Shown: positions 16,050-64,000 of the stretch, piece after piece | How positions within the stretch are numbered: position 1 is the stretch's first letter | Layout: every line of letters begins with the position of its first letter | NCBI RefSeq assembly: GCF_009931435.1 | Contig: NZ_CP043414.1 | Source of the DNA: Escherichia coli | Lineage (GTDB): Bacteria > Pseudomonadota > Gammaproteobacteria > Enterobacterales > Enterobacteriaceae | Reading direction: 5' to 3' (one strand) | DNA length: 64,000 bases | Notes under the pieces: generated by a model | Told to the model about the DNA's origin: nothing | The model's input: the letters and a program-made list of their open reading frames with translations, nothing else | Databases searched by the model: none | Made by a program: the position numbers and the translations under genes

Positions 16050-16169
16050 ATGCCTGGCAGTTCCCTACTCTCGCATGGGGAGACCCCACACTACCATCGG
16101 CGCTACGGCGTTTCACTTCTGAGTTCGGCATGGGGTCAGGTGGGACCACCGCGCTAAGGCCGCCAGGCA
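16050..16169 (-). rRNA. rrfE: 5S rRNA (rrnE operon)
   Basis: 120-nt reverse-complement match to E. coli 5S (ATGCCTGGCAGTTCCCTACTCTCGCATGGGGAGACCCC ... GGCCGCCAGGCA). Confidence 0.95.
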
Positions 16170-16262: not shown

Positions 16263-19167
<2,905 letters not shown>

Positions 19168-19360
19168 TCACAACCCGAAGATGTTTCTTGCGATTCATCA
19201 TCGTGTTGCGAAAATTTGAGAGACTCACGAACAACTTTCGTTGTTCAGTGTTTCAATTTTCAGCTTGATCCAGATTTTTAAAGAGCAAATATCTCAAACG
19301 TCACCCGAAGATGAGTTTTGAGATATTAAGGCAGGTGACTTTCACTCACAAACCAGCAAG

Positions 19361-19436
19361 TGGCGTCCCCTAGGGGATTCGAACCCCTGTTACCGCCGTG
19401 AAAGGGCGGTGTCCTGGGCCTCTAGACGAAGGGGAC
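19361..19436 (-). tRNA. gltV: tRNA-Glu(UUC) in the 16S-23S spacer
   Basis: Exact reverse complement of GTCCCCTTCGTCTAGAGGCCCAGGACACCGCCCTTTCACGGCGGTAACAGGGGTTCGAATCCCCTAGGGGACGCCA. Confidence 0.97.
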
Positions 19437-19521
19437 GTATCAGTCTGCTTCGCAAGACGCCTTGCTTTTCACTTTCTATCAGACAATCTGTGTGAGCACT
19501 GCAAAGTACGCTTCTTTAAGG

Positions 19522-21063
<1,542 letters not shown>

Positions 21064-21194
21064 AAAAGTTTGATGCTCAAAGAATTAAACTTCGTAATGA
21101 ATTACGTGTTCACTCTTGAGACTTGGTATTCATTTTTCGTCTTGCGACGTTAAGAATCCGTATCTTCGAGTGCCCACACAGATTGTCTGATAAA

Positions 21195-21207
21195 TTGTTA
21201 AAGAGCA
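21195..21207 (-). promoter_or_regulatory. rrn leader boxA antitermination element (rrnE)
   Basis: Minus-strand TGCTCTTTAACAA in the 16S leader. Confidence 0.8.
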
Positions 21208-21247
21208 GTTGCGACGCGGCTTTCAACTCACTGTCGCGAGGTGGCGT

Positions 21248-21275
21248 ATATTACGCTTTCCTCTTTCAGAGTCAA
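21248..21275 (-). promoter_or_regulatory. rrnE P2 promoter
   Basis: Minus strand TTGACT -16 bp- TAATAT. Confidence 0.75.
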
Positions 21276-21357
21276 CCCTGAATTTCAGGATTTTTCTCTT
21301 CAACCGAACCGGCTGTTTGTGTGAAGTGATTCACATCCGCCGTGTCGATGGAGGCGC

Positions 21358-21385
21358 ATTATAGGGAGTTCTCCGCAGGCCGCAA
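21358..21385 (-). promoter_or_regulatory. rrnE P1 promoter
   Basis: Minus strand TTGCGG -16 bp- TATAAT followed by GC-rich discriminator (GCGCC), A/T-rich UP-like sequence upstream. Confidence 0.7.
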
Positions 21386-21556
21386 TAGAAAAATTGCAGA
21401 AAAATGACTGACTGCTGCATTCCCCAGCAAAACCCCGCTTTATACCTTTTTACGCACAGAGTTATCCACAATCATCAATGTAATTTCTGTATTTTTCCCA
21501 CGGTAAACACTGTCAAAATTGTGATCACCATTGAAAGAGAAAAATTCGCGAGCGTT

Positions 21557-21679: not shown

Positions 21680-23269
21680 ATGCAACAACGTCGTCCAGTC
21701 CGCCGCGCTCTGCTCAGTGTTTCTGACAAAGCCGGTATCGTCGAATTCGCCCAGGCACTTTCCGCACGCGGTGTGGAGCTGCTGTCTACAGGGGGCACTG
21801 CTCGTCTGTTAGCAGAAAAGGGTCTGCCGGTAACCGAAGTTTCCGATTACACCGGTTTCCCGGAGATGATGGATGGACGCGTGAAGACCCTGCATCCAAA
21901 AGTGCATGGTGGCATTCTGGGCCGTCGCGGCCAGGACGATGCCGTTATGGAAGAACATCAGATCCAACCTATCGATATGGTGGTTGTTAACCTCTATCCG
22001 TTCGCCCAGACCGTGGCCCGTGAAGGTTGCTCTCTGGAAGATGCGGTTGAGAACATCGATATCGGTGGTCCAACGATGGTGCGCTCCGCCGCCAAGAACC
22101 ATAAAGATGTCGCAATCGTGGTGAAGAGCAGCGACTACGACGCCATTATTAAAGAGATGGATGCCAACGAAGGATCGCTGACGCTTGCAACCCGTTTCGA
22201 TCTCGCTATCAAAGCCTTCGAACACACCGCCGCCTACGACAGCATGATTGCCAACTACTTCGGCAGCATGGTTCCGGCTTATCACGGTGAAAGCAAAGAG
22301 GCCGCCGGTCGCTTCCCGCGTACGCTGAACCTGAACTTCATTAAGAAGCAGGATATGCGCTACGGCGAGAACAGCCACCAGCAGGCTGCCTTCTATATAG
22401 AAGAGAATGTGAAAGAAGCCTCCGTTGCCACCGCAACCCAGGTTCAGGGTAAAGCCCTCTCTTATAACAACATCGCCGATACCGATGCGGCGCTGGAGTG
22501 CGTGAAAGAGTTCGCCGAGCCGGCATGTGTGATTGTGAAGCACGCCAACCCTTGCGGTGTGGCTATCGGCAATTCCATTCTTGATGCTTACGATCGCGCG
22601 TATAAAACCGACCCCACCTCGGCGTTCGGCGGCATTATCGCCTTTAACCGCGAGCTGGATGCTGAAACCGCACAGGCCATCATTTCTCGTCAGTTTGTCG
22701 AAGTGATTATTGCGCCGTCCGCCAGCGAAGAAGCGTTGAAAATCACCGCCGCTAAACAGAACGTACGTGTCCTGACCTGCGGTCAGTGGGCCGAGCGTGT
22801 TCCAGGCCTTGATTTCAAACGCGTGAACGGTGGTCTGCTGGTTCAGGATCGCGATCTGGGGATGGTCGGTGCGGAAGAACTGCGCGTCGTCACCAAACGT
22901 CAGCCGACTGAACAGGAACTGCGTGATGCACTGTTCTGCTGGAAAGTGGCGAAGTTCGTGAAATCCAACGCTATCGTCTATGCCAAAAACAATATGACCA
23001 TCGGTATTGGCGCGGGCCAGATGAGCCGCGTGTACTCCGCGAAAATCGCCGGTATTAAAGCTGCCGATGAAGGCCTGGAAGTGAAAGGTTCCTCGATGGC
23101 TTCTGACGCGTTCTTCCCGTTCCGCGACGGTATTGATGCCGCCGCCGCTGCGGGCGTGACCTGCGTAATCCAGCCTGGCGGTTCTATCCGTGATGACGAA
23201 GTAATTGCCGCCGCCGACGAGCACGGTATTGCGATGCTCTTCACCGACATGCGCCACTTCCGCCATTAA
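21680..23269 (+). CDS. purH: Bifunctional AICAR transformylase / IMP cyclohydrolase PurH (529 aa)
   Basis: Full-length [30 protein letters not shown]... Confidence 0.97.
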
Positions 23270-23280
23270 TGGAGCGACAG

Positions 23281-24570
23281 ATGAAAGTATTAGTCATTGG
23301 TAACGGCGGGCGCGAGCACGCGCTGGCCTGGAAAGCGGCCCAGTCGCCGCTGGTTGAGACTGTTTTTGTTGCTCCGGGTAACGCAGGTACTGCGTTGGAA
23401 CCCACGCTGCAAAACGTCGCTATCGGCGTGACCGATATCCCGGCGCTGCTGGATTTCGCACAAAACGAAAAGATCGATCTGACCATCGTCGGCCCGGAAG
23501 CACCGCTGGTGAAAGGCGTGGTCGATACTTTCCGCGCCGCCGGGCTGAAAATCTTCGGCCCAACCGCAGGTGCCGCGCAACTTGAAGGCTCGAAAGCGTT
23601 TACCAAGGATTTCCTGGCCCGCCATAAGATCCCTACGGCGGAATACCAGAACTTCACCGAGGTCGAACCTGCGCTGGCGTATCTGCGTGAAAAAGGCGCG
23701 CCCATCGTTATTAAAGCTGACGGTCTGGCTGCCGGGAAAGGCGTTATCGTGGCGATGACGCTGGAAGAAGCGGAAGCGGCTGTTCACGATATGCTGGCGG
23801 GCAACGCTTTTGGCGACGCGGGTCATCGCATCGTTATCGAAGAGTTCCTCGATGGCGAAGAAGCGAGCTTTATCGTGATGGTGGACGGCGAGCATGTGCT
23901 GCCGATGGCCACCAGTCAGGACCACAAACGCGTAGGTGATAAAGATACCGGGCCGAACACGGGCGGGATGGGCGCTTACTCCCCTGCACCAGTGGTGACC
24001 GATGAGGTTCATCAGCGCACCATGGAACGTATCATCTGGCCAACCGTGAAAGGCATGGCAGCGGAAGGCAGCACCTACACCGGTTTTCTCTACGCGGGCC
24101 TGATGATCGACAAACAGGGCAATCCGAAGGTTATCGAATTTAACTGCCGCTTTGGCGATCCGGAAACCCAGCCGATTATGCTACGCATGAAGTCCGATCT
24201 GGTTGAGCTTTGCCTGGCGGCCTGTGAAGGTACGCTTGACGAGAAAACGTCCGAGTGGGATGAACGCGCTTCTCTCGGCGTGGTGATGGCTGCGGGTGGA
24301 TATCCGGGCGATTACCGCACCGGCGATGTGATCCACGGCCTGCCGCTGGAAGAAGCGTCTGACGGCAAAGTGTTCCACGCGGGCACAAAACTGGCGGATG
24401 ACGAGCAGGTGGTAACCAGCGGCGGGCGCGTACTGTGCGTCACCGCGCTGGGTCATACCGTGGCAGAAGCGCAGAAACGCGCTTATGCCTTAATGACCAA
24501 TATCCATTGGGACGATTGCTTCTGCCGGAAGGATATCGGCTGGCGCGCCATCGAACGCGAGCAGAACTAA
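23281..24570 (+). CDS. purD: Phosphoribosylamine-glycine ligase PurD (429 aa)
   Basis: ORF 23269..24570 trimmed to MKVLVIGNGGREHALAWK start; ATP-grasp fold; coupled to purH. Confidence 0.96.
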   Translation: MKVLVIGNGGREHALAWKAAQSPLVETVFVAPGNAGTALEPTLQNVAIGVTDIPALLDFAQNEKIDLTIVGPEAPLVKGVVDTFRAAGLKIFGPTAGAAQLEGSKAFTKDFLARHKIPTAEYQNFTEVEPALAYLREKGAPIVIKADGLAAGKGVIVAMTLEEAEAAVHDMLAGNAFGDAGHRIVIEEFLDGEEASFIVMVDGEHVLPMATSQDHKRVGDKDTGPNTGGMGAYSPAPVVTDEVHQRTMERIIWPTVKGMAAEGSTYTGFLYAGLMIDKQGNPKVIEFNCRFGDPETQPIMLRMKSDLVELCLAACEGTLDEKTSEWDERASLGVVMAAGGYPGDYRTGDVIHGLPLEEASDGKVFHAGTKLADDEQVVTSGGRVLCVTALGHTVAEAQKRAYALMTNIHWDDCFCRKDIGWRAIEREQN

Positions 24571-25892
24571 CGCGACAGTTTTGCCAATAGCGTTTTGCGC
24601 GTAATCCCTAACTGACGGGCGGCTTCGGTTTTGTTGCCGCCCGTTTTCTCCAGCGCCGCCAGAATCACTTCTTTTTCGACTTCCACCAGCGGCTGAATAT
24701 CCTGACTTTGCACCAGCGGGATCGGCGTACTGGCAATCGCCAGCGGCAGCTCGCGTTCGGAAATATATTCCCCGGTCAGCAGCACCACCGCCCGTTCCAC
24801 CGCGTTTTCCAGTTCACGAATATTTCCCGGCCAGTCGTAGTGAATCAGCAGATCCATCGCCTGGGGCGTAAACCCTTTTACCGCCTTGCGATTGCGTTCG
24901 GCAAAGCGCTGCAGAAAATGACCAGCCAGCAGAGGAATATCTTCCCGCCGCTGACGCAGCGGCGGTACTTCAATCGCCACCACATTCAGGCGATAGTAGA
25001 GATCCTGGCGAAAACGCCCGGCATTCACCTCAGCGGCAAGATCGCGATGAGTCGCCGCAATCAGCCGGACATCAACCGAGATAGTCTGATTGCTGCCGAC
25101 ACGCTGAACTTCGCGCTCCTGAATCGCACGCAGCAGACGAACCTGCATCATCGGCGAGATATCGCCAATTTCATCGAGAAACAGCGTGCCGCCGTCCGCC
25201 TCAACAAAGCGCCCTTCCCGCCGTTTGTCGGCTCCGGTAAACGCCCCTTTTTCGTGACCGAACAATTCAGATTCCAGTAAGGATTCGTTGAGTGCCGCAC
25301 AGTTGAGCGTTACCAGCGGCTTTTCACTCCGTGCGCTACTGGCGTGAATCGCCCTGGCGACCAGCTCTTTACCGGTGCCGGAATCGCCGTGGATCAGCAC
25401 CGTGGCTTCCGATGGCGCGACGAGGGCAATTTCACTGAGCAGGTGCTGCATCGCCGGGCTTTTACCGACCATACCGAACTGGCTGGCAGACACCGCAGGC
25501 GTTTCAGCATCAACACTGTGCGTATGCGCAAGCGCCTTTTCCAGGGTTGCCTGCAGGTTATCGAAATCCAGCGGCTTGATGAGATAATCCAGCGCCCCGG
25601 TTTTCAACGCCTCTACCGCCGTCTCGACGCTGGAGTACGCGGTCATAATCAGTACCGGAATTGCCGGATTTAACGCTTTGATCTCTTTCAGCGTGGCGAT
25701 GCCATCCATCTCTGCCATTCGCACATCACAAAGCACAAGATCAAAAACCTGTTCCCGCACTTGCTCCAGCGCCTGTCGCCCGCTGTTCGCCAGCGCGACG
25801 TTATAGCCCCAGCCGCGCAGCAATGCCTGCAAGATAGTGCAGTGGCTAATGTCATCATCCACCACCAGAATATCGATATTATCGTGCGTCAT
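24567..25892 (-). CDS. zraR: Sigma54-dependent response regulator ZraR (441 aa)
   Basis: Receiver domain, AAA+ sigma54-activator domain (GESGTGKE, GAFTGA) and C-terminal HTH. Confidence 0.96.
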
Positions 25893-27265
25893 CCTTGTGG
25901 GTCCTTACGCGTAATATTGACCGGAAGCCAGAGGGTGAACGTTGCACCTTTCCCCTCCTGGCTTACGACCTGAATTGTACCACCGTGTTGTTCAACAATA
26001 TTATGCACAACCGCCAGCCCCAGTCCGGTGCCTTCGGCTTTGGTGGTGAAGTACGGGGTGAAGATGGCTTCAAGCTGATCCGCCGCAATTCCCTTACCGC
26101 TGTCGGTTACGCTTATTTTAACGCCTGCGCTGCTTTCGTTGGCCGTCACGCTAATCACGCCATGCTGACCAATAGCCTGAATAGCATTGAGATAGAGATT
26201 CAACAGGACCTGAGTCAGTCGGTCCGGATCGGCCTGTATCTCCGGCAATGCGTCGTTGGCGGTAAAGCGTAATTGGATCTCCCTACTGTTTGCATCCTGG
26301 CTTACCAGTTGTAATGAGTGGTTAATCAGCGTGTTGAGATCCACCGCCTTCAAAGCAAGATGCGTTGGCTTAACCAGCTCCAGCAGCTCGCTTACCACGC
26401 GGTTTAAACGGTCGGCTTCTTTCGCCATCACCTGCGCCAATTGATGCGCTTCTCCTCCTGCTGGTGCGCGTTCGGCAAAATATTTCGCCAGCCCTTTAAT
26501 CGAGGAAAGCGGGTTACGGATTTCATGGGCGACGCCTGCGGCCAGATGTCCCAGCGCCACCAGCTTCTCTTTGCGCTTCATTTCATCCTGTAACAGCTGG
26601 CGCGAGCGAAGATAGCGGCGATACCAGAAGAATGACAACACGCTTGCCAGCAAGACCGTCGCCAGGGCGAAGAGGATAATCAGGGTGTTTCTCTGCTCAC
26701 GCTCTTCGGCACTCACAATGTTACTGGCGTCGAAAGCGATAAAAATTGCTTGTGGTGTCGCGGCATACTGCTGCATATGGCGCATCCGGTGCATTCCAGC
26801 AGCAAACATCGGTTGAAACTGGCGATAAATTTCCAGAACAGGCTCGCCGTCTGCGCTATCGATCCGCCGCCACGCTTCTTCGTCTCCCGGATGTAACTGC
26901 TGCATTTCCTGCGGGGAATAAAGCTGTTTTCCCACCATGCCGGAGTTGCTATGCATCACGATTGTTCCTTGTTCATCCGTGACCGCAAACCAACGCACTC
27001 CTGGCTGCCCAGCCATTTCTTCCAGTAAAGCCTGCTGCTGCGCATGATGCATGCGCATCCCCATACCGACGCGCGAGCCGGATTCGAGAGCGCGGATAAG
27101 TACACTGCCTTTTTCCAGCAGAGTTTGTCTGGCGGCGGCAGTCTCGCGCCCATAATCGCGAATCACGGTCACTGCAAACAACCCCACCAGTCCAACAATG
27201 ACTACGGGAAGGATCGCGCTTAACCATTTTGCTAAGGCATCTTTTGATCGCTGCATAAAACGCAT
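25889..27265 (-). CDS. zraS: Sensor histidine kinase ZraS
   Basis: 458-aa ORF with two TM segments, H-box (HEIRNPL) and HATPase domain; 4-bp overlap with zraR. Confidence 0.93.
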   Translation of the reverse strand: MRFMQRSKDALAKWLSAILPVVIVGLVGLFAVTVIRDYGRETAAARQTLLEKGSVLIRALESGSRVGMGMRMHHAQQQALLEEMAGQPGVRWFAVTDEQGTIVMHSNSGMVGKQLYSPQEMQQLHPGDEEAWRRIDSADGEPVLEIYRQFQPMFAAGMHRMRHMQQYAATPQAIFIAFDASNIVSAEEREQRNTLIILFALATVLLASVLSFFWYRRYLRSRQLLQDEMKRKEKLVALGHLAAGVAHEIRNPLSSIKGLAKYFAERAPAGGEAHQLAQVMAKEADRLNRVVSELLELVKPTHLALKAVDLNTLINHSLQLVSQDANSREIQLRFTANDALPEIQADPDRLTQVLLNLYLNAIQAIGQHGVISVTANESSAGVKISVTDSGKGIAADQLEAIFTPYFTTKAEGTGLGLAVVHNIVEQHGGTIQVVSQEGKGATFTLWLPVNITRKDPQG

Positions 27266-27295
27266 CTTCTTCTTTGCCTGTTCATCCCTTTTTGA

Positions 27296-27312
27296 CAGCA
27301 GAAATCATGCCA
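27296..27312 (-). promoter_or_regulatory. Candidate sigma54 promoter for zraSR
   Basis: Minus-strand TGGCAT-N5-CTGCT (GG/GC spacing as in -24/-12 elements) about 30 nt upstream of the zraS start. Confidence 0.45.
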
Positions 27313-27363
27313 TCTTTTATTAGCACTTACCCTGCGCTTTAACACAAAGGCTTAAGTTTCAAT

Positions 27364-27409
27364 GAGTAAAAATGACTCGCCACACACAGCAGGCGAGTCA
27401 TTTTTACTC
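27364..27409. promoter_or_regulatory. ZraR enhancer: 18-bp perfect inverted repeat between divergent zraSR and zraP
   Basis: GAGTAAAAATGACTCGCC -10 bp- GGCGAGTCATTTTTACTC. Confidence 0.7.
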
Positions 27410-27451
27410 GTTTATCATGTCATATTGCCCGTCATATCAGCGTTTCGCCGT

Positions 27452-27467
27452 TGGCACGAAAGATGCA
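27452..27467 (+). promoter_or_regulatory. Sigma54 promoter of zraP
   Basis: TGGCACGAAAGATGCA (-24 GG / -12 GC) about 40 nt upstream of the zraP ATG. Confidence 0.65.
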
Positions 27468-27502
27468 ATACCCGAAGTAAGACAACCACTGGAGGATTAA
27501 CC

Positions 27503-27922
27503 ATGAAACGGAACACGAAAATTGCCCTGGTGATGATGGCGCTTTCAGCAATGGCGATGGGATCGACATCTGCATTTGCTCACGGCGGACACGGTATGTG
27601 GCAGCAAAATGCCGCGCCTTTGACCAGCGAACAACAGACAGCGTGGCAGAAAATCCATAATGACTTTTACGCTCAAAGCAGCGCACTGCAACAGCAACTG
27701 GTGACGAAGCGTTATGAATACAATGCCCTGTTAGCCGCGAACCCACCGGATAGCAGCAAAATTAACGCGGTCGCCAAAGAGATGGAGAATTTGCGTCAGT
27801 CGTTAGATGAGTTACGGGTGAAACGAGATATTGCGATGGCTGAAGCGGGTATTCCGCGCGGTACCGGAATGGGTTACGGCGGCTGCGGTGGTGGCGGTCA
27901 TATGGGTATGGGCCACTGGTAA
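27503..27922 (+). CDS. zraP: Periplasmic zinc-binding chaperone ZraP (139 aa)
   Basis: ORF 27362..27922 trimmed to MKRNTKIALVMMALSAMAMG (signal peptide) with GGAGG SD; Gly/His/Met-rich C-terminus. Confidence 0.92.
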   Translation: MKRNTKIALVMMALSAMAMGSTSAFAHGGHGMWQQNAAPLTSEQQTAWQKIHNDFYAQSSALQQQLVTKRYEYNALLAANPPDSSKINAVAKEMENLRQSLDELRVKRDIAMAEAGIPRGTGMGYGGCGGGGHMGMGHW

Positions 27923-27923
27923 A

Positions 27924-28625
27924 TCAGAACGTTTTCTCATTGGGTTGCCAGCGACAGAAATCAGAGTTTGCCACTAACAGTAATTGCGAACCTTCGGGCG
28001 CTTCCAGCCATGCCACGCTGACATCAACAGAAGAGCGGCTCTGGCGGCGCTCGATATGCGCTATCGCCTGCGAATCTAAATCAGGTTTAATGGTTTGCCC
28101 TTCGCAGGTGGTCACGGTCTGTTCCATCGCATGCCAGCGCCCCTGGCGCAGCACGACTCTCCCCTGACGTAAGGCATCGCTAATCTGGCGGATCTGATCA
28201 GCACGATAACGGTATAAATCGATTTGGTCGTTAGAAAGCTGCTGCTTTTCCCCATCGGATTCACGTTGCATAAAGCTCAGATCGCCGCGATCGTCAAAAC
28301 GCGCGCGAATATTCACCGGCGGTTTGCTGTAAACATTGATATTGATAAGCGTGAGGTTATCGCCCTGCCAGCGATACTCTCGCGTCGTGGTATCGCCACT
28401 GCGCCACGGGCTAAACACAGCAAGCAGATGCACATTATTGCCACTGTCTTTTCGCCAGATACGTACCGCGCCCTGATCTTCAGCAAATCCACTGGCGGTA
28501 AAGGGAGGAAGTGAAGAGTTGTGACTACAGGCAGTGAGAAACAGAGCGCCCGCCAGCATCAATGATCGACGCCAGAAAGACAAAAGGGGTGAAACCACCC
28601 CTTCGTTAAAACTGTTCACTGCCAC
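27924..28625 (-). CDS. yjaH: DUF1481-type putative lipoprotein YjaH
   Basis: 233-aa ORF with lipobox-like LFLTAC near the N-terminus; immediately downstream of hupA. Confidence 0.85.
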   Translation of the reverse strand: MAVNSFNEGVVSPLLSFWRRSLMLAGALFLTACSHNSSLPPFTASGFAEDQGAVRIWRKDSGNNVHLLAVFSPWRSGDTTTREYRWQGDNLTLININVYSKPPVNIRARFDDRGDLSFMQRESDGEKQQLSNDQIDLYRYRADQIRQISDALRQGRVVLRQGRWHAMEQTVTTCEGQTIKPDLDSQAIAHIERRQSRSSVDVSVAWLEAPEGSQLLLVANSDFCRWQPNEKTF

Positions 28626-28631
28626 GCAATC

Positions 28632-28904
28632 TTACTTAACTGCGTCTTTCAGTGCCTTGCCAGAAACAAATGCCGGCACGTTAGCTGCGGCAATTTTGAT
28701 TTCTTTACCGGTCTGCGGGTTGCGGCCAGTACGCTCAGCGCGGTGGTTCACTTTGAAGGTACCGAAACCAACCAGTTGTACAGCATCGCCTTCTTTCAGA
28801 GACTCAGTAATTGCAGCCAGAGTGGACTCCAGAGCAGCTTTAGCCTGGGTTTTGGACAGTTCTGCTTTCTCTGCAATTACATCAATCAGTTGAGTCTTGT
28901 TCAT
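28632..28904 (-). CDS. hupA: DNA-binding protein HU-alpha (90 aa)
   Basis: [29 protein letters not shown]...; classic HU fold. Confidence 0.98.
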
Positions 28905-29090
28905 AAGTTATCCTTACAATGTGTTTATCGCTTGCTAAGCATCGAGTGCGACGGAAATGCCAGAATAGCACTCTCCTGCATACACGCACCGATAGCCACT
29001 TTTTTTCGCCCCCCAAATGTAGACCAGACGGGGGGCGAAAGGGAAGACTCCAGGTATGACAAATCAGGCGTTAAATCACGTTTTCTGGTC

Positions 29091-29681
29091 TTATTGCTGA
29101 AAAATTATACCAATATTGCTCTCGCCCGCCTCACGCAGGTCTGCCCTAAGGCCTTTTATCAGCTCGATATCGCGTTCTTCGCACTCAGCTAAAAGTCGGA
29201 ATATTTCCCACTGAATGTCCCACTCTTGCTCTACAGCTGGGTTTTCTTTGAGCTCTTCATCGCTCATTTCACGGCCAGCCTGAGTCATTTCCAGCATCGC
29301 CACGGTCGTGATGGAGGTCTTACTCACTTCTACCGCGTGTTCGAGCGTTTCGCCACTTAAACGCGAATGGACCAGTTCACTTAACGCCACGCAAGCATCG
29401 ATTGCCGGATAAACGCCGTACAGATCGAAATCGTCCGCTGAAGGAATCGCTTCTTCAAATTTCTCCAGTTGGCTGTCGAAATTTACTTTTGCGTCTTTGA
29501 CGGTCAGTGTTTCCCAGATGAGATCGAGAATGCGGCGGTAAATTTGCCCATCGCCGAAGCCGGTTTGCTGGCAGAACATGGCGTAATTGGGGTACATGCG
29601 TTCGCATAAGCAAGCCATGAAAGTGACGTGCTGCCAGCTTTCCAGGCGCTCCAGACGCAGATGAATTGGGTTTTGTAACAT
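29091..29681 (-). CDS. yjaG: DUF416 family protein YjaG (196 aa)
   Basis: Full-length ORF in the conserved position between nfi and hupA. Confidence 0.88.
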   Translation of the reverse strand: MLQNPIHLRLERLESWQHVTFMACLCERMYPNYAMFCQQTGFGDGQIYRRILDLIWETLTVKDAKVNFDSQLEKFEEAIPSADDFDLYGVYPAIDACVALSELVHSRLSGETLEHAVEVSKTSITTVAMLEMTQAGREMSDEELKENPAVEQEWDIQWEIFRLLAECEERDIELIKGLRADLREAGESNIGIIFQQ

Positions 29682-29723
29682 GTTGAGTTCTCGAATACGG
29701 AAATTATCCGCAGTTTACCTGAA

Positions 29724-30395
29724 TTAGGGCTGATTTGCTGTATAGCGCACGAACGCCGGACGTTCCGAAGCCACCGCGTCTGCCCAGCGCGTTGGCTCCG
29801 GCAGACGATAGCCTTTCATGCAGCGTTGTACCCAGGCCAGCGCACTATCCATGCTGACACGATGGCCAGTTGCGATAAATAGCGGGTTACAGCGCGCTTT
29901 ACTGCGCCAGACCCAGGCCAGCTGCTCGCCTTTATCCATCAACGGTGCCAGCGCGCCCGGTTCGCTGGAGAGCGGCTCGAATTTACCGCATAACCGCTTT
30001 TTCGCTACGCCAATGGTCGGTACGTCCACTAATAAGCCAAAATGGCTGGCAACGCCAAGACGGCGCGGATGCGAGATCCCATGACCATCGACAAACACTA
30101 AATCCGGCTTTTGCGACAGCATCTCCCACGCTGCCAGCAGCGCAGGATATTCGCGGAAGGAAAGAAAACCTGGAATGTAAGGCATGGTGGTGGCGATGCG
30201 TGCCACTTTATACTCCACCAGCTCAAGAGAGGGGTATTTCAGCAGCACCATCGCCGCTCGCGTCACTTCTCCGCCCTGCTCAAACCCGACATCGGCTCCG
30301 GCGATCAGATCCGGCGGATCTTTATCAAGTCGATCCTCACGGATCACAGAAGAAGCCAGTTCGATTTGTTGAGCGCGTAATGACGCGAGATCCAT
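29724..30395 (-). CDS. nfi: Endonuclease V (deoxyinosine 3' endonuclease), 223 aa
   Basis: Full-length ORF, co-directional and adjacent to hemE. Confidence 0.95.
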
Positions 30396-32904: not shown

Positions 32905-33075
32905 AATTTCTTGTCGGAGTGCCTTAACTGGCTGAGACCGTTTATTCGGGATCCGCGGAACCTGATCAGGCTAATACCTGCGAAGGGAACAAGAGTTAAT
33001 CTGCTATCGCATCGCCTTTGCGGCGATCGTCTCTTGCTTCATCCGTCGTCTGACAAGCCACGTCCTTAACTTTTT
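32905..33075 (+). promoter_or_regulatory. TPP (thi-box) riboswitch in the thiC leader
   Basis: Contains CTGAGA ... ACCTGATCAGGCTAATACCTGCGAAGGGAAC thi-box consensus; ends at the thiC SD/ATG. Confidence 0.7.
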
Positions 33076-47259: not shown

Positions 47260-47290
47260 CTTACAGCGCAAAAAGGCTGGTGACTAAAAA
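47260..47290 (-). terminator. rplL-rpoB intergenic attenuator
   Basis: Minus-strand GGCTGGTGAC-TTTTTA-GTCACCAGCC followed by TTTTT, in the 319-bp rplL-rpoB spacer. Confidence 0.75.
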
Positions 47291-47339
47291 GTCACCAGCC
47301 ATCAGCCTGATTTCTCAGGCTGCAACCGGAAGGGTTGGC

Positions 47340-54217: not shown

Positions 54218-55183
54218 TTATTTTTCTGCACTACGCAGGGATATTTCACCGCCCATCCAGGGTTTTATTATTCCATCCTGCTCAAGCAATAAAGCGCCTT
54301 GTTTGTCTATTCCGCGTGAAATGCCAAATATTTCTTTATCACCAATGATAAGTTTCACTGGGCGATTAATAAAATTATCCAGTTTTTCCCAGCGCGAAAG
54401 ATAAGGTGCCAATCCTTCTTGCTCGAAGAGTTCCAGCGCCGCACGTAATTCACGTATTAGCATGGCCGCCAACGCATTACGATCGAGATTGATCCCAGCT
54501 TCCTGCAGCGTGATCCACCCCTGATTAACGACACTCTCTTCAACACGACGCATTGCCATGTTGATCCCGGCACCAACGACTATTTGCGCCGCATCGCCGG
54601 TTTTGCCAGTCAGCTCCACAAGAATACCTGCCAGCTTGCGATCCTGCAGATAGAGGTCATTCGGCCATTTAACACGAACTTTATCAGCGCCCAACTTGCG
54701 TAATACTTCCGCCATCACGATACCGATAACCAGACTTAAACCAATCGCCGCAGCCGGGCCTTGTTCCAGACGCCAGAACATCGACAAATATAAGTTTGCG
54801 CCAAAAGGTGAAAACCATTTCCGACCTCGGCGACCACGTCCTGCCTGCTGGTATTCAGCAACGCAGGCATCACCCGATTTAAGCTCTCCGATACGATCAA
54901 GAAGATACTGATTCGTGGAGTCAATAACTGGCAGCACGGCTACACTACCGCCATCCAGCTGACTCAATATCTTTTCGGCATTAAGTAACTGGATTGGCTC
55001 GGGCAAGCTGTATCCTTTACCCGGAACGGTAAAGACATCAACGCCCCAGTCACGCAGTGTTTGAATATGTTTATTAATGGCCGCCCGGCTCATTCCTAAC
55101 GTTTCACCCAGCTGCTCACCAGAGTGAAATTCGCCATTCGCTAACAGGGCGATCAATTTCAGCGGCACGGTGTTATCCTTCAT
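54218..55183 (-). CDS. birA: Biotin-protein ligase / bio repressor BirA (321 aa)
   Basis: N-terminal HTH plus BPL catalytic domain (GRGRRGRKW). Confidence 0.97.
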
Positions 55184-56208
55184 GAAATTGTCTCCACTGC
55201 GCTCACTTCACCTGATGCGCCAATAAAGCGGACTTCAGGCTCAAGCCAGACATTAAATTTTTCACCAACTTTCTGTCTTACATGATGCGCCAGCTGTACA
55301 ACATCTTCGCTTTTTGCGTTGTGCTCATTTATGAGAACCAGCGCCTGTTGACGGTGTACCGCAGCACCACCAATTTGCGTCCCTTTAAGCTGGCACTGAT
55401 CGATAAGCCAACCTGCTGCCAATTTTACTGAACCGTCTGTCTGGGGATAATGTGGTGCTGTTGGAAATTGTGCCAACAACGCGTTAGCCGCTTCGGCAGA
55501 TACAACAGGGTTTTTGAAGAAACTACCGGCATTGCCATTCACTTTTGGATCAGGGAGTTTGGTGGTGCGCATATGACACACCGCATCAAATACTTGCTGT
55601 GGCGTTACGGTTGTAGGATCCAGACGAGTTAAGTCACCATACGTTAGTACAGGTTGCCACTCTTTTGGCAGGCGCAGACCTACGGCTACAATGGCGAAGC
55701 GGTCCTGGTATTCATGTTTAAAAATACTGTCGCGATAGCCAAAACGGCACTCTTTGGCAGTTAAGCGCACTTGCTTGCCTGTCGCCAGTTCAACACAGTC
55801 AACATAAGCGCAAACTCGCTGTAATTCTACGCCATAAGCACCAATATTCTGGATAGGTGATGAGCCGACACAACCAGGAATTAACGCCAGATTTTCCAGA
55901 CCTGGCATACCTTCCTGCAAAGTGTATTTTACCAAGCGATGCCAGTTTTCTCCGGCTCCTACATGTAAATACCACGCATCAGGTTCATCATGAATTTCGA
56001 TACCTTTGATCCGGTTGATGATCACCGTGCCGCGATAGTCTTCCAGAAAAAGTACATTACTTCCTTCACCCAGAATAAGAACGGGTTGCCCTTCTGCGGT
56101 TGCATGCTGCCAGGCATTGAGTAATTGTTGTTCGTCTTCGGCACATACAATGTGCTGAGCATTATGATCAATGCCAAATGTGTTCCAGGGTTTTAAGGAG
56201 TGGTTCAT
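55180..56208 (-). CDS. murB: UDP-N-acetylenolpyruvoylglucosamine reductase MurB (342 aa)
   Basis: FAD-binding fold; 4-bp overlap with birA; starts about 135 nt after rrfB. Confidence 0.97.
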
Positions 56209-56342: not shown

Positions 56343-56462
56343 ATGCCTGGCAGTTCCCTACTCTCGCATGGGGAGACCCCACACTACCATCGGCGCTACG
56401 GCGTTTCACTTCTGAGTTCGGCATGGGGTCAGGTGGGACCACCGCGCTAAGGCCGCCAGGCA
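56343..56462 (-). rRNA. rrfB: 5S rRNA (rrnB operon)
   Basis: Same length and sequence as the rrfE copy, 40,293 bp away. Confidence 0.95.
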
Positions 56463-56555: not shown

Positions 56556-59460
<2,905 letters not shown>

Positions 59461-59653
59461 TCACAACCCGAAGATGTTTCTTGCGATTCATCATCGTGTT
59501 GCGAAAATTTGAGAGACTCACGAACAACTTTCGTTGTTCAGTGTTTCAATTTTCAGCTTGATCCAGATTTTTAAAGAGCAAATATCTCAAACGTCACCCG
59601 AAGATGAGTTTTGAGATATTAAGGCAGGTGACTTTCACTCACAAACCAGCAAG

Positions 59654-59729
59654 TGGCGTCCCCTAGGGGATTCGAACCCCTGTTACCGCCGTGAAAGGGC
59701 GGTGTCCTGGGCCTCTAGACGAAGGGGAC
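59654..59729 (-). tRNA. gltT: tRNA-Glu(UUC) in the 16S-23S spacer
   Basis: Same 76-nt sequence as gltV. Confidence 0.97.
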
Positions 59730-59900
59730 ACGAAAATTGCTTATCACGCGCTGCGTGATATTTTCGTGTAGGGTGAGCTTTCATTAATAGAAAGCGAACG
59801 GCCTTATTCTCTTCAGCCTCACTCCCAACGCGTAAACGCCTTGCTATTCACTTTTCATCAGACAATCTGTGTGAGCACTGCAAAGTACAGTTCTTTAAGG

Positions 59901-61442
<1,542 letters not shown>

Positions 61443-61574
61443 AAAAGTTTGATGCTCAAAGAATTAAACTTCGTAATGAATTACGTGTTCACTCTTGAGA
61501 CTTGGTATTCATTTTTCGTCTTGCGACGTTAAGAATCCGTATCTTCGAGTGCCCACACAGATTGTCTGATAAAT

Positions 61575-61587
61575 TGTTAAAGAGCAG
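61575..61587 (-). promoter_or_regulatory. rrn leader boxA (rrnB)
   Basis: Minus-strand TGCTCTTTAACAA. Confidence 0.8.
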
Positions 61588-61623
61588 TGCCGCTTCGCTT
61601 TTTCTCAGCGGCGCGGGGTGTGC

Positions 61624-61651
61624 ATAATACGCTTTCCCGCTACAGAGTCAA
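61624..61651 (-). promoter_or_regulatory. rrnB P2 promoter
   Basis: Minus strand TTGACT -16 bp- TATTAT. Confidence 0.8.
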
Positions 61652-61741
61652 GCATTTTTTTGCTTTTCTCTGTCGAGATTCTCAGGAGAACCCCGCTGAC
61701 CCGGCGGCGTGTTTGCCGTTGTTCCGTGTCAGTGGTGGCGC

Positions 61742-61792
61742 ATTATAGGGAGTTATTCCGGCCTGACAAGAGGAAATTTAAAATAATTTTCC
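61742..61792 (-). promoter_or_regulatory. rrnB P1 promoter with UP element
   Basis: Minus strand AAAATTATTTTAAATTTCCTC (UP) TTGTCA -16 bp- TATAAT GCGCC. Confidence 0.85.
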
Positions 61793-61814
61793 GAATGCGC
61801 AACATTCAACCAAA

Positions 61815-62672
61815 TCAGTCTGAAACTGCCAGTTTTTCGAGCGTTTTGAAGCCGTAACGCTGTAAAACGGGTAATAACTGTTCAGCTTCTGGCGTCATGT
61901 CCATGCAAAAGGCAATATTCGCATCGGCGGATTTTGCATCCGGGGCTTCATGTTCTAACAACCAGGCCGTTCGGCGAGCAATCGCAGCGCCTGAATCCAC
62001 CAGCCGTGTTCCCTCTGGCAGTACCTGTAACAGTTCTTCTTGTAGTAGAGGGAAATGGGTACACCCCAGTACAACGGTATCTGGCGGCTCTTTCATTCTT
62101 AACCACGGACGCAAGATACGTTTTAGCGCATCCAGAGAAACATCTTCGCCATGCAGCTTCGCTTCAGCCAACTCAACCATCTCTGCCGAGCCCAGCATTT
62201 CTATCTGGCATTCATTAGCGAAACGCGTGATCAGCTCATGAGTATAAGAACGTTTAACTGTTCCGCGGGTTGCCAGTAATCCGACAATGCCATTAGCTGT
62301 CAGACGTGCCGCTGGCTTAATTGCCGGAACGACACCGACAACCGGGAACGCAAACTTCTCGCGTAATGCAGGAAGTGAAACGGTACTGGCGGTGTTGCAA
62401 GCGACCACTGCCAGCGCAAGGGGATAGCGTTCTTGCACTGCGGTGACAATTGCCACCACTCGCTCAACAATAAACTCTTCGCTTTTTTCGCCATACGGGA
62501 AAGCGACGTTATCGAAAGCATAAATGTAATGGAGATCCGGTAAGAGATGCCGGATCTCGTCATAGACCGACAACCCACCAACGCCGGAGTCAAACACCAG
62601 CACGGTGGGACGTGGTTCAGAAGGTGTAGCTGCCAGACAAGGTGTATTCCCGTCCTGCAGTTTGGTAGCCAT
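61815..62672 (-). CDS. murI: Glutamate racemase MurI (285 aa)
   Basis: ORF 61815..62684 trimmed to MATKLQDGNTPCLAATPSE start; its 3' end lies under the rrnB P1 upstream region. Confidence 0.95.
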   Translation of the reverse strand: MATKLQDGNTPCLAATPSEPRPTVLVFDSGVGGLSVYDEIRHLLPDLHYIYAFDNVAFPYGEKSEEFIVERVVAIVTAVQERYPLALAVVACNTASTVSLPALREKFAFPVVGVVPAIKPAARLTANGIVGLLATRGTVKRSYTHELITRFANECQIEMLGSAEMVELAEAKLHGEDVSLDALKRILRPWLRMKEPPDTVVLGCTHFPLLQEELLQVLPEGTRLVDSGAAIARRTAWLLEHEAPDAKSADANIAFCMDMTPEAEQLLPVLQRYGFKTLEKLAVSD

Positions 62673-64000
62673 AGACTGTCTCATAATCTTTGTCGAACAG
62701 GTTGGCTATTTTACCACGAACTGTCAGGTGAGAGGTGACCGGATACGCAACCGCAAGATCCCACACACTCAGTCCCCCCATTTTCACCCTACGGGCATTG
62801 TCAAAGTCGTAATCGTATCGCTCACCGATGTACTGATACGTAACATCCCATCCAAGCTCATAAATCTCACCGCTCAACTCATATTTTACCTGCTGTTTTG
62901 CGCGACGATAGAGTTGCTGATCAGTTTCATCATCGCGGGGGTCAACATACTGCAACGTCAAACGATGATCGACTGGACCAGTTATGAGATTACCCGTCCA
63001 TTCAAGGCCCTTAATTGTCGCGGATTTGACGTTAAAATAGGTATTTTTGTTGTAGTCAATCAGATTCTGGATTTTGTAGTGATAGGTCGACAAGCGCCAG
63101 TCAACTGGACCGGTTAGGCCTTCTAATCCAGCCTCCCATTGCTTAGATTCTTCTGGCTTCAAATTAGGGTTAGAAGCAATACCGAATCGCTCTGCGCCAA
63201 ATTGTTGACCAAGCGAAGGAGCCAGGAAACCTGTTCCATAGGAAAGCGTTACTTTGTAATTATCAACAAACTGCCATCCTGCCGCCGTTTGCCAAGTACC
63301 ATGCCAGCCGAACTGACCATCGTGATCCTCACGACCAGAGGCTTCCAGCGTGACGTTGTCAATTTGCTGCTGCCCGGTCAGATAAAGCCCGGTGTTGTTG
63401 CGCTTATAGTTATCTGTGCCATAAGCACCGAAGGACATCAGTTTTTCCTGTTTCCAGTCCGCTCCTGCGCTGATAGCACCATGTCCAACAATGACATTGT
63501 TACCCCACTGGATATAACGTTGCTCCATATCATCAAGAGTATAACCTGACGCGTAACGTCTAGCCTGACTGCTGTAGTTGTAGTCCTTAATGCGCTGATA
63601 ATTTGCAACCAGCTGAGAAGAATAGATCCCCGAATTAAAACGCAACCCCGTATCCCACGACTGCGTATAATTTTGATGCTCGTCATTGCCGCCATCATAT
63701 CCCCAGTTCCCCTGGTCGTAATCAGCATTACTGGCATAACCATAACCACGGAAGTAACCATCAAACTGATCGTTAAATTTGTGCTCAATTCCGCCCCAGA
63801 ACAGCTTGTTGCGATAACCATCGCGATCGCTATCTCCGCTATAGCTTGAGTATGGCTGGATGTTGAAACCTTTGGTCGTTTGATAAGCCCCTGCAGCAGT
63901 CACGACCGTGTCACCAAAACGCTGACGGTAAGTACCATCGTATTGCTGGTAACCTTTCGAACCAATACCGATATTAATCTGCGAACGCTCTTCATTCGTC
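62617..64000 (-). CDS. btuB: TonB-dependent vitamin B12 / colicin E / phage receptor BtuB, 5' end beyond window edge (divergent allele)
   Basis: Minus-strand frame open from the window edge to the stop at 62617; C-terminus ...VRGKIANLFDKDYETVYGYQTAGREYTLSGSYTF is the canonical BtuB terminal beta-strand; overlaps the murI start by 56 bp. Confidence 0.85.
   Translation of the reverse strand, partial: TNEERSQINIGIGSKGYQQYDGTYRQRFGDTVVTAAGAYQTTKGFNIQPYSSYSGDSDRDGYRNKLFWGGIEHKFNDQFDGYFRGYGYASNADYDQGNWGYDGGNDEHQNYTQSWDTGLRFNSGIYSSQLVANYQRIKDYNYSSQARRYASGYTLDDMEQRYIQWGNNVIVGHGAISAGADWKQEKLMSFGAYGTDNYKRNNTGLYLTGQQQIDNVTLEASGREDHDGQFGWHGTWQTAAGWQFVDNYKVTLSYGTGFLAPSLGQQFGAERFGIASNPNLKPEESKQWEAGLEGLTGPVDWRLSTYHYKIQNLIDYNKNTYFNVKSATIKGLEWTGNLITGPVDHRLTLQYVDPRDDETDQQLYRRAKQQVKYELSGEIYELGWDVTYQYIGERYDYDFDNARRVKMGGLSVWDLAVAYPVTSHLTVRGKIANLFDKDYETVYGYQTAGREYTLSGSYTF

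What the first reader, a model, noticed from the sequence alone, without database searches (positions are those of the whole stretch)
59730..59900. 16S-tRNAGlu spacer is 86 nt longer in rrnB than in rrnE
tRNA-Glu and both rRNAs are co-linear in the two operons, but the spacer between the 16S 3' end and tRNA-Glu is about 171 nt in rrnB (59730-59900) versus about 85 nt in rrnE (19437-19521). The rrnB-only block (CGAAAATTGCTTATCACGCGCTGCGTGATATTTTCGTGTAGGGTGAGC...) contains a short inverted repeat, CACGCGCTGCGTG. Spacer-length variants of this kind are known between rrn operons but are worth recording because they define operon identity and may carry processing signals.
Basis: seen in the sequence. 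Interest (0 to 1): 0.25.

Follow-up and report, generated by a model that had tools for sequence, protein, structure and literature searches.

The report
Known rRNA spacer variant, conserved fold

Summary
The 16S-tRNA-Glu spacer is 171 nt at 59730-59900 and 85 nt at 19437-19521, both on the minus strand. It is not an 86-nt insertion. The first 65 nt are shared, then 106 nt (59730-59835) stand in place of 20 nt (19437-19456).

E. coli K-12 MG1655 has the same pattern: rrnB and rrnG 171 nt, rrnC and rrnE 85 nt. Its block differs from the window's at one base. This is the classical rsl ("spacer loop") polymorphism (Harvey et al. 1988), so the finding is already known and is not an assembly artefact.

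The block does not mark operon identity. It occurs in 2790 of 5426 complete E. coli genomes. It sat at rrnG in four sampled strains and at rrnE, with rrnB short, in a fifth. The window's closest relative lacks it at both rrnB and rrnE.

The unexpected part is that the block folds into a three-way junction plus a two-part hairpin ending at tRNA-Glu position -1. The same architecture, with many compensatory base changes, sits at the same place in Cedecea, Cronobacter, Tatumella, Pantoea, Limnobaculum and Serratia, and in part in Aeromonas. No Rfam family covers it.

It is most likely a self-folding, dispensable spacer module that processing removes. A dedicated function is not excluded.

The parts
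59901..61442 (-). 16S rRNA gene of the rrnB-like operon (flanked by murI and murB)
   Evidence: Rfam SSU_rRNA_bacteria, 1577.6 bits. The murI ORF lies at 61815-62684 and the murB ORF at 55180-56208.
59836..59900 (-). Shared 5' part of the spacer (65 nt). It includes the strand that pairs with the 16S leader to form the RNase III processing stem.
   Evidence: 60 of 65 positions are identical to the rrnE-like spacer. A long, near-perfect duplex forms with the leader (leader ...TTATCAGACAATCTGTGTGGGCACT..., spacer ...AGTGCTCACACAGATTGTCTGAT...).
59730..59835 (-). The 106-nt block present only in the long allele (the rsl block)
   Evidence: Alignment with the rrnE-like spacer. 105 of 106 positions are identical to MG1655 rrnB. 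Found in 2790 of 5426 complete E. coli genomes.
59768..59829 (-). Three-way junction. P1 is 59819-59829 paired with 59768-59776. P2 is the hairpin at 59800-59818. P3 is the hairpin at 59777-59795.
   Evidence: Minimum-free-energy fold. The same architecture appears in 6 or 7 other genera with compensatory changes. Coordinates.
59730..59767 (-). Two-part 3' hairpin that ends exactly at tRNA-Glu position -1. It consists of outer stem P4 (ACGAAAAU/AUUUUCGU), inner stem P5 (59743-59759) and a 3'-side bulge AAGCA (59738-59742).
   Evidence: Inverted repeats I2 and I3. Across 9 taxa, 97% of cells are paired and 16 of 16 pairs carry compensatory changes.
59654..59729 (-). tRNA-Glu (UUC) of the rrnB-like operon
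   Evidence: ARAGORN; Rfam tRNA.
19437..19521 (-). Short (85-nt) 16S-tRNA-Glu spacer of the rrnE-like operon. Its last 20 nt (19437-19456, CTTGCGAAGCAGACTGATAC) replace the 106-nt block.
   Evidence: The covariance model of the module finds no match here. The same short type occurs in Salmonella, Klebsiella, Citrobacter and Enterobacter.
19361..19436 (-). tRNA-Glu (UUC) of the rrnE-like operon
   Evidence: ARAGORN.

Best explanation
**What it is.** The region is the long allele of the tRNA-Glu-type 16S-23S spacer of Escherichia coli, known as the rsl or "spacer loop" variant. In it a 106-nt block replaces 20 nt between the 16S processing stem and tRNA-Glu.

**How it most likely works.**
- The block is transcribed as part of the rRNA precursor (shown by its position).
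- It folds on its own into a compact three-way junction plus a two-part hairpin that abuts the RNase P site of tRNA-Glu (supported by folding and covariation).
- It is cut away with the rest of the spacer, by RNase III on the 16S side and RNase P on the tRNA side, and is then discarded (inferred from the established processing pathway).
- The fold is kept by selection. The most likely reason is that a self-contained structure does not disturb folding and processing of the neighbouring 16S 3' end and tRNA (inferred).
- The module itself is dispensable, since half of E. coli strains and most operons lack it.

**Why it sits in rrnB here.** Which operon carries the block is decided by gene conversion among the Glu-type operons. 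That is why it is in rrnB and not rrnE in this genome.
For: **Identity.**
- The lengths and position match MG1655 exactly: rrnB 171 nt, rrnG 171 nt, rrnC 85 nt, rrnE 85 nt.
- The block differs from MG1655 rrnB at 1 of 106 nt.
- The Harvey et al. 1988 paper on loss of the spacer loop from rrnB is cited in PMC4696680.

**Mobility between operons.**
- The block was at rrnG in 4 of 4 sampled strains.
- It is at rrnE, with rrnB short, in strain 2013C-4282.
- It is absent from rrnB and rrnE in the closest relative.
- There are 4005 copies in 2790 of 5426 genomes, with a median of 1 per genome.
- Measured rrn gene-conversion rates, including spacer swaps, are in PMC8022953.

**Structure.**
- Single-sequence folds of 8 taxa give the same architecture, with z from -3.1 to -4.7 in seven of them and -1.4 in Pantoea.
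- RNAalifold on a structure-blind MAFFT alignment recovers P2, P3 and P4.
- The curated alignment has 95% of cells paired, against 36-51% when the partners are slid. Twenty of 41 pairs carry compensatory changes, and 0 of 500 shuffles reach this.
- The hairpin in 9 taxa has compensatory changes at 16 of 16 pairs.
- The covariance model finds Serratia symbiotica, which was not used to build it, at E = 6.6e-5. It finds nothing in short or Ile-type spacers.

**Dispensability and no known processing role.**
- The RNase III stem lies in the shared part of the spacer.
- Published RNase III-dependent sites lie outside the block.
Against: - Compensatory evolution over such distances shows selection on the fold. 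A purely passive "do no harm" role is only one way to explain that.
- No expression, end-mapping or deletion data were available, so removal and degradation of the block are inferred, not shown.
- The curated alignments were built with the structure in mind, which inflates the percentage of paired cells.
- Only 8 or 9 taxa could be collected.
- The Harvey et al. paper itself could not be read. The figures of 106 and 20 nt attributed to it come from my memory, although they match what the sequence shows.
Confidence: 0.7

Rival explanations
1. The module is a cis-acting processing or folding element. In this reading the hairpin that ends at tRNA position -1, and the junction upstream of it, guide or time RNase P or RNase E cleavage, or they insulate tRNA-Glu folding from the 16S 3' region, giving the operons that carry it a measurable advantage.
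For: - The 3' end of the hairpin coincides exactly with tRNA position -1 in all 9 taxa.
- The stems are maintained by compensatory changes.
- A 3'-side bulge of 3-7 nt is always present.
- The AC dinucleotide before P4 could extend the helix onto tRNA nucleotides +1 and +2 (repeat I2).
Against: - Operons with the short spacer (rrnC and rrnE in K-12, rrnE in this window) produce the same tRNA-Glu.
- 49% of E. coli genomes have no copy of the block at all.
- Most sampled genera carry only short spacers.
- The base at position -1 is not conserved: U in E. coli, C or G elsewhere.
Confidence: 0.15
2. The excised spacer fragment is a stable small RNA with a function in trans, such as a sponge or a protein-binding RNA. 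It would be made at rRNA-level rates. It would run from the RNase III cut to the RNase P cut and be protected by its terminal hairpin.
For: - The fold is compact and conserved, with a blunt 3'-terminal hairpin.
- There is precedent for spacer-derived RNAs. StyR-44 is an Rfam family lying in the same spacers, downstream of the tRNA.
- Sponges derived from tRNA spacers are discussed in PMC9514646, citing Lalaouna et al..
Against: - No report of such an RNA was found in the library.
- No single-stranded segment is conserved in sequence apart from CCUUUAC, which is itself part of P1.
- The block's presence is sporadic within the species.
Confidence: 0.1
3. The hairpin acts at the DNA or transcription level as a one-way terminator that stops antisense transcription running into the 16S gene.
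For: - The only terminator-like site in 59600-60000 is on the plus strand, antisense to the operon: stem 59742-59760 followed by TTTTCGTG.
- The bulge is always on the sense 3' side. On the antisense strand the U-rich run therefore directly follows the stem.
Against: - It is a consensus match only. Shuffles give 0.4 such sites on average in this region.
- The U-run is short or displaced in other taxa, for example GCGAUUUU in Aeromonas.
- P4 covaries at its G-C positions, which points to an RNA helix rather than to mere U-richness.
- This reading does not explain P1-P3.
Confidence: 0.03
4. The block is a recent insertion of a small mobile element, or an assembly error.
For: - Its distribution among operons and strains is sporadic.
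Against: - The same sequence is in the MG1655 reference and in 2790 complete genomes, never on plasmids and at most 7 copies per genome.
- Homologues lie at the same position in other genera and families, having diverged with compensatory changes.
- The change is a replacement without target-site duplication.
Confidence: 0.01

Closest known systems
rsl (ribosomal spacer loop) heterogeneity of E. coli K-12 rrn operons (Harvey, Hill, Squires and Squires 1988, J Bacteriol 170:1235; cited in PMC4696680)
   Same: - The position is the same, between 16S and tRNA-Glu.
- The lengths are the same: 171 against 85 nt, that is 106 against 20 nt.
- 105 of 106 bases are identical to MG1655 rrnB.
- MG1655 also carries the block at rrnG.
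- It is known to be lost from rrnB in one K-12 subline, according to the paper's title.
   Different: Nothing of substance. The window comes from a different E. coli or Shigella lineage, about 98% identical to most E. coli. It has one substitution in the hairpin loop and a few in the shared 65 nt.
Mosaic variable blocks of the 16S-23S spacer in E. coli ECOR strains and Salmonella (Anton et al. 1998, J Mol Evol 47:62, reference 79 of PMC9514646; details from my own knowledge)
   Same: - Block-wise alleles are shuffled among operons and strains by recombination.
- Both tRNA-Glu and tRNA-Ile/Ala spacer types exist.
   Different: I found no description in the searchable library of the block's conserved three-way-junction fold, or of its presence in Erwiniaceae, Yersiniaceae, Budviciaceae and Aeromonas.
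Intervening sequences (IVS) of 23S rRNA in Salmonella, Yersinia and Proteus (from established knowledge)
   Same: - They are structured extra segments of about 100 nt.
- They are sporadic among operons, strains and genera.
- They are dispensable and removed after transcription.
   Different: IVS lie inside the mature 23S rRNA (helices 25 and 45), are cut by RNase III, and fragment the rRNA. This block lies in the spacer, is branched rather than one long stem, and no RNase III-dependent site was reported in it.
Regulatory RNAs derived from tRNA-operon spacers, such as 3'ETS-leuZ (Lalaouna et al., cited in PMC9514646), and Rfam StyR-44 in the tRNA-23S spacer
   Same: They are by-products of stable-RNA processing that are conserved and structured. 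StyR-44 lies in these same spacers.
   Different: There is no evidence that the block accumulates or acts in trans, and it matches no Rfam model even at E <= 10.

Membership tests
rsl long allele of the E. coli tRNA-Glu-type 16S-23S spacer | It lies between the 16S 3' end and tRNA-Glu, downstream of the shared RNase III stem segment. | tested here: met
rsl long allele of the E. coli tRNA-Glu-type 16S-23S spacer | About 106 nt stand in place of about 20 nt of the short allele (figures recalled from Harvey et al. 1988, which could not be read here). | tested here: met
   106 against 20 nt after a shared 65 nt.
rsl long allele of the E. coli tRNA-Glu-type 16S-23S spacer | Its sequence is identical or nearly identical to the block in K-12 rrnB and rrnG. 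| tested here: met
   105 of 106 positions are identical to MG1655 rrnB. The covariance model scores the window, K-12 rrnB and K-12 rrnG equally.
rsl long allele of the E. coli tRNA-Glu-type 16S-23S spacer | Its presence varies among operons and strains through gene conversion. | tested here: met
   The block is at rrnB (window, K-12), at rrnG, at rrnE, or absent. It is found in 2790 of 5426 genomes.
Any curated Rfam RNA family | A match to a covariance model at or near the gathering score. | tested here: not met
   Nothing matches in 59730-59835 at the gathering threshold or at E <= 10.
RNase III processing stem of pre-16S rRNA | Long complementarity to the 16S 5' leader, and an RNase III-dependent cleavage. 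| tested here: not met
   The continuous leader-spacer duplex uses spacer nucleotides of the shared 65 nt. Reported RNase III-dependent sites lie at +21 and +10.
Intrinsic terminator | A G+C-rich hairpin followed directly by a U-run on the transcribed strand. | tested here: not met
   There is no site on the sense (minus) strand. One consensus match lies on the antisense strand only.
Small mobile or repetitive element (REP, ERIC, MITE) | Many dispersed copies outside rrn operons, with terminal inverted repeats or a target-site duplication. | tested here: not met
   There are at most 7 copies per genome and none on plasmids. There is one match in the 64-kb window. The change is a replacement without duplication.
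Conserved structured RNA (candidate new motif) | The same helices are kept in different taxa through compensatory changes, beyond the controls. | tested here: met
   Caveat: few taxa, and part of the evidence rests on curated alignments.

The most novel reading that the evidence does not exclude
The rsl block may be a member of an undescribed, ancient family of structured RNAs. The family would sit immediately upstream of tRNA-Glu in rRNA operons of Enterobacterales and, in reduced form, Aeromonas. It would be kept by selection for a function of its own, for example as a processing or folding chaperone for tRNA-Glu and the 16S 3' end, or as an abundant excised RNA. It would nevertheless be repeatedly lost and regained among operons by gene conversion.
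Probability: 0.3. Interest if true: 0.55.

Novelty: already known. Interest (0 to 1): 0.3.

Why it matters
As stated, the finding is a textbook-era polymorphism. Its practical value is only as a strain and operon marker, and it is an unreliable one because it moves between operons.

The part that could matter is different. A roughly 100-nt RNA made at rRNA-level rates has kept a three-way junction and a hairpin through compensatory evolution across at least four families of Enterobacterales, yet it is optional within a single species.

That makes it a clean natural test case for why spacer RNA structure is conserved. It also provides an easy experiment: isogenic long and short alleles already exist in nature.

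Tried and rejected
**Metagenome scans.** Two scans of metagenome contigs, one with an anchored-gap pattern and one with a degenerate junction pattern, both returned nothing. One viral-contig scan also returned nothing.

**Plasmid collection.** Searches with the Serratia and Aeromonas modules found only the query records themselves.

**Protein-anchored fetching.** I fetched operons next to murI or tufB to harvest more spacers. The yield was poor.
- Most murI-linked operons in other Enterobacteriaceae are of the tRNA-Ile type.
- Erwinia and Pantoea rwandensis have short Glu spacers.
- Only Cronobacter dublinensis gave a new long copy.

**Origin from the 16S 3' end.** I tested whether the P1 flanks derive from a duplication of helix 45 plus the anti-Shine-Dalgarno tail (GTAGGGG..TGCGGT..CACCT..TTAC). 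Local alignment against shuffles gave p of about 0.02-0.03 in Cronobacter and Tatumella, but 0.1-0.8 in the other six taxa, E. coli included. I rejected this as unsupported.

**Promoter in the block.** None was found.

**Coding potential.** An AUG in the P3 loop opens a frame that runs into the tRNA. It has no ribosome-binding site, and the loop is not conserved in other taxa. Rejected.

**Compensating changes in the leader.** The five substitutions in the shared 65 nt are not compensated, because the leaders are identical from boxA to 16S.

**Leader pairing with the block.** RNAduplex gave a scattered, loop-rich pairing that I do not regard as meaningful.

Full report
**Observation**

Both ribosomal RNA operons of the window are on the minus strand. 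Rfam and ARAGORN give the following positions:

| Operon | 5S | 23S | tRNA-Glu(UUC) | 16S |
|---|---|---|---|---|
| High-coordinate | 56345-56460 | 56556-59460 | 59654-59729 | 59901-61442 |
| Low-coordinate | 16052-16167 | 16263-19167 | 19361-19436 | 19522-21063 |

The gene context fits the names rrnB and rrnE. murI and murB flank the high-coordinate operon. The region 22000-30000, next to the low-coordinate operon, matches purH, purD and zraSR. The four-tRNA cluster beside tufB and the thiC TPP riboswitch lie between the operons.

Read in the RNA sense, the two spacers share their first 65 nt with five mismatches. After that, 106 nt in rrnB (59730-59835) stand opposite 20 nt in rrnE (19437-19456). 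The 86-nt length difference is thus a replacement of one block by another, not an insertion.

**Identity**

E. coli K-12 MG1655 shows exactly the same pattern:

| Operon | Spacer length |
|---|---|
| rrnB | 171 nt |
| rrnG | 171 nt |
| rrnC | 85 nt |
| rrnE | 85 nt |

The window's 106-nt block differs from that of MG1655 rrnB at one base, in a hairpin loop.

This is the heterogeneity described long ago as the ribosomal "spacer loop" (rsl). [quoted passage not shown] It is cited as the reference for spacer variation in PMC4696680. The paper itself is not in the held library, so what I say about its content beyond the title rests on my memory.

The block is found in 2790 of 5426 complete E. coli genomes. 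There are 4005 copies in total, a median of one per genome, at most seven, and none on plasmids. Identity is at least 99% in 2648 of those genomes. An assembly artefact is excluded.

**The block is not an operon marker**

- Four strains sampled from the hit list carry the block at rrnG, between clpB and kgtP.
- Strain 2013C-4282 has the long spacer at rrnE and the short one at rrnB, the mirror image of the window.
- Strain 2020CK-00188 is the closest relative in the collection, 99.5% identical over a neighbouring 8 kb. It has 85-nt spacers at both rrnB and rrnE.
- The window's complete rrnB spacer is 100% identical to spacers in three other strains. I checked one of these and it lies at rrnG.

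This is the expected signature of gene conversion among rrn operons. [quoted passage not shown] The claim that the variant "defines operon identity" is therefore not supported.

**Relation to processing**

The leaders of the two operons are identical from boxA to the 16S 5' end. The spacer strand that pairs with the leader to form the RNase III stem (AGTGCTCACACAGATTGTCTGAT) lies within the shared 65 nt.

A published RNA-seq comparison of wild type and an rnc mutant lists RNase III-dependent positions at 4168221 (rrnB, +21), 3943398 (rrnC), 4209733 (rrnE) and 2729606 (rrnG, +10). All of these lie in the shared part and none lies in the block (PMC5371410). This is weak negative evidence, because the supplementary file was truncated when stored and reads from repeated sequence are hard to place.

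The region contains no promoter-like site. It contains no terminator-like site on the transcribed strand. The only terminator-like match is on the antisense strand, at 59742-59760 followed by TTTTCGTG.

**What the block is as RNA**

On its own the 106-nt block folds to -32.4 kcal/mol (z = -2.7). From G72 of the spacer to the tRNA (59730-59829) the z-score is -3.6, and none of 200 shuffles folds as well.

The fold has two domains.

- **A three-way junction.**
  - P1: 59819-59829 paired with 59768-59776.
  - P2: a hairpin at 59800-59818.
  - P3: a hairpin at 59777-59795.
- **A two-part hairpin at 59730-59767.**
  - Outer stem P4: ACGAAAAU/AUUUUCGU.
  - Inner stem P5: AUCACGC/GCGUGAU.
  - A five-nucleotide bulge, AAGCA, on the 3' side.
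  - Its last base is tRNA position -1.

**Relatives elsewhere**

I scanned one genome per species for the pattern 16S 3' end, 150-180 nt, tRNA-Glu 5' end. It found long spacers in only a few taxa: Pantoea stewartii, Tatumella morbirosei (two operons), Cedecea colo, Limnobaculum eriocheiris and Avibacterium. The Avibacterium spacer is unrelated.

Mislabelled chromosomes and rrn-bearing replicons in the plasmid collection added three more:

- Serratia symbiotica, 189 nt.
- Serratia liquefaciens, 145 nt, a reduced form.
- Aeromonas caviae, 280 nt, with the module at the 3' end of the spacer.

A murI-linked operon of Cronobacter dublinensis has a 171-nt spacer with the module. In Tatumella one of the two copies sits at the murB-birA-coaA-tufB locus, the equivalent of rrnB.

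The short allele is equally widespread. Salmonella, Klebsiella, Citrobacter and Enterobacter share GCAAGGCGTCTTGCGATTGAGACTT..., and Proteus, Pantoea rwandensis and Erwinia also have short spacers. Both alleles are therefore old, and the long one is patchy.

**Evidence that the fold is conserved**

*Without any alignment.* Minimum-free-energy folds of the eight modules each give P1-P2-P3 followed by P4/P5. Aeromonas has a single inner hairpin in place of P2 and P3. Z-scores run from -3.1 to -4.7, except Pantoea at -1.4.

*On a plain MAFFT alignment made without structural input.* RNAalifold recovers P2, P3 and P4. Thirteen of 21 predicted pairs are kept through changes on both sides.

*On my curated alignment of six taxa, 41 pairs.* The results are.

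| Measure | Value |
|---|---|
| Cells forming standard pairs | 95.4% |
| Same measure with partners slid by 1-3 columns | 36-51% |
| Pairs with compensatory changes | 20 |
| Same count in the slid controls | 1-5 |
| Shuffles that reach the observed count | 0 of 500 |

*For the P4/P5 hairpin in nine taxa.* 97% of cells pair, and all 16 pairs show compensatory changes. Examples for P4 are ACGAAAAU/AUUUUCGU, ACAAAAAU/AUUUUUGU, GUGAAAUU/AAUUUCAC, CCGAAAUU/AAUUUCGG and AAAAUCGC/GCGAUUUU.

*With a covariance model built on the six taxa.* The results are.
- It finds a single match in the window (59730-59829, E = 4e-10).
- It finds K-12 rrnB and rrnG.
- It finds Serratia symbiotica, which was not used in training, at E = 6.6e-5.
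- It finds nothing in short or Ile-type spacers.
- The alignment fitted to the model gives similar pair counts.

*Caveats.*
- The curated alignments were made with the structure in mind.
- Gaps were written as N to hold the register.
- The flanking anchor columns of the hairpin alignment were normalised by me.
- Only eight or nine taxa are available.
- The shuffle control does not correct for relatedness.
- The slid controls and the alignment-free folds are the more trustworthy lines of evidence.

No Rfam family covers the block, even at E <= 10. Full-text searches found no description of this fold.

**How it most likely works**

- *Shown.* The block is transcribed within the precursor. It lies between the RNase III stem and the RNase P site. 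It has a conserved, autonomous fold. It is dispensable at the level of operon, strain and genus. It moves among Glu-type operons.
- *Inferred from the established rRNA and tRNA processing pathway.* It leaves the precursor as part of the fragment bounded by the RNase III cut after 16S and the RNase P cut at tRNA-Glu +1, and it is then degraded.
- *My reading of why the helices are kept.* A 100-nt insert at this place is tolerated only if it folds on itself. Otherwise it would pair with the 16S 3' domain, the leader or the tRNA. On this reading compensatory evolution needs no further function.

I give this reading, together with the identity as rsl and the gene-conversion dynamics, a confidence of about 0.7.

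The rivals are listed below, all with low weight and none excluded by experiment:
- a cis role in tRNA-Glu or 16S maturation;
- a stable excised RNA with a role in trans;
- an antisense-only terminator.

**Novelty and score**

The finding as written is already known and ordinary. The additional result is that the rsl block is an ancient structured module with covariation across Enterobacteriaceae, Erwiniaceae, Yersiniaceae and Budviciaceae, and partly in Aeromonas, and that Rfam lacks it. As far as I could check this has not been described. It is modestly interesting and easy to test.

Noticed in passing
window 59836-59900 compared with 19457-19521: The shared 65 nt of the two spacers differ at five positions: spacer nt 11-12 CT against GC, nt 45-46 GA against AG, and nt 55 T against A. 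The 16S leaders are identical from boxA onward, so these changes are not compensated in the RNase III stem partner. The window's whole rrnB spacer is 100% identical to spacers in three other strains; the one I checked lies at rrnG.
   Followed up: partly
window 59742-59770, plus strand: This is the only terminator-like site in the region, and it is on the strand antisense to the rRNA operon (stem TATCACGC/GCGTGATA followed by TTTTCGTG). In all nine taxa the bulge of the P4/P5 hairpin is on the sense 3' side, which would make any terminator activity antisense-only.
   Followed up: partly
window 19175-19283 and 59468-59576, minus strand: Rfam StyR-44 (a Salmonella Typhi non-coding RNA) matches at 124.9 bits in both tRNA-Glu-23S spacers. 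The same family also matches in Tatumella. This is the conserved 23S leader part of the spacer.
   Followed up: no
window 47274-47335 (minus strand) and 32905-33005 (plus strand): Rfam P26 (annotated as a Pseudomonas sRNA) matches at 74.5 bits, and a TPP riboswitch matches at 74.8 bits. In the related E. coli genomes I fetched, the riboswitch lies just upstream of thiC.
   Followed up: no
L022:5930-6004 (Cronobacter dublinensis): The tRNA-Glu downstream of the long module has a different D-arm (GTCTAGCGGTTAGGACTCC) from the E. coli type (GTCTAGAGGCCCAGGACACC). My anchored genome scan therefore could not see such operons, so the count of taxa with long spacers is a lower bound.
   Followed up: partly
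E. coli genome collection: At least one complete E. coli genome carries seven copies of the block, although normally only four of the seven operons are of the tRNA-Glu type. I did not identify which genome this is.
   Followed up: no
module P1 flanks, e.g. L022:5828-5845 and 5885-5898; window 59819-59829 and 59768-59776: The P1 strands resemble the 16S 3' terminus (GTAGGGG..TGCGGT and ..TCACCT..TTAC). Against shuffles the similarity is marginal in Cronobacter and Tatumella (p about 0.02-0.03) and absent in E. coli and the other taxa.
   Followed up: yes
L011 (NZ_AP026896.1) and other records in the plasmid collection: Several records labelled as plasmids are whole chromosomes or large chromosome pieces: Aeromonas caviae 4.9 Mb, Proteus mirabilis 4.1 Mb, Klebsiella pneumoniae 5.4 Mb. 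In Aeromonas caviae all seven Glu-type spacers carry the long form.
   Followed up: no
window 21064-21421 compared with 61443-61800, minus strand: Upstream of boxA the two operons' promoter and leader regions are diverged, and each matches its K-12 counterpart. So the flanks keep their operon identity while the spacer allele does not.
   Followed up: no
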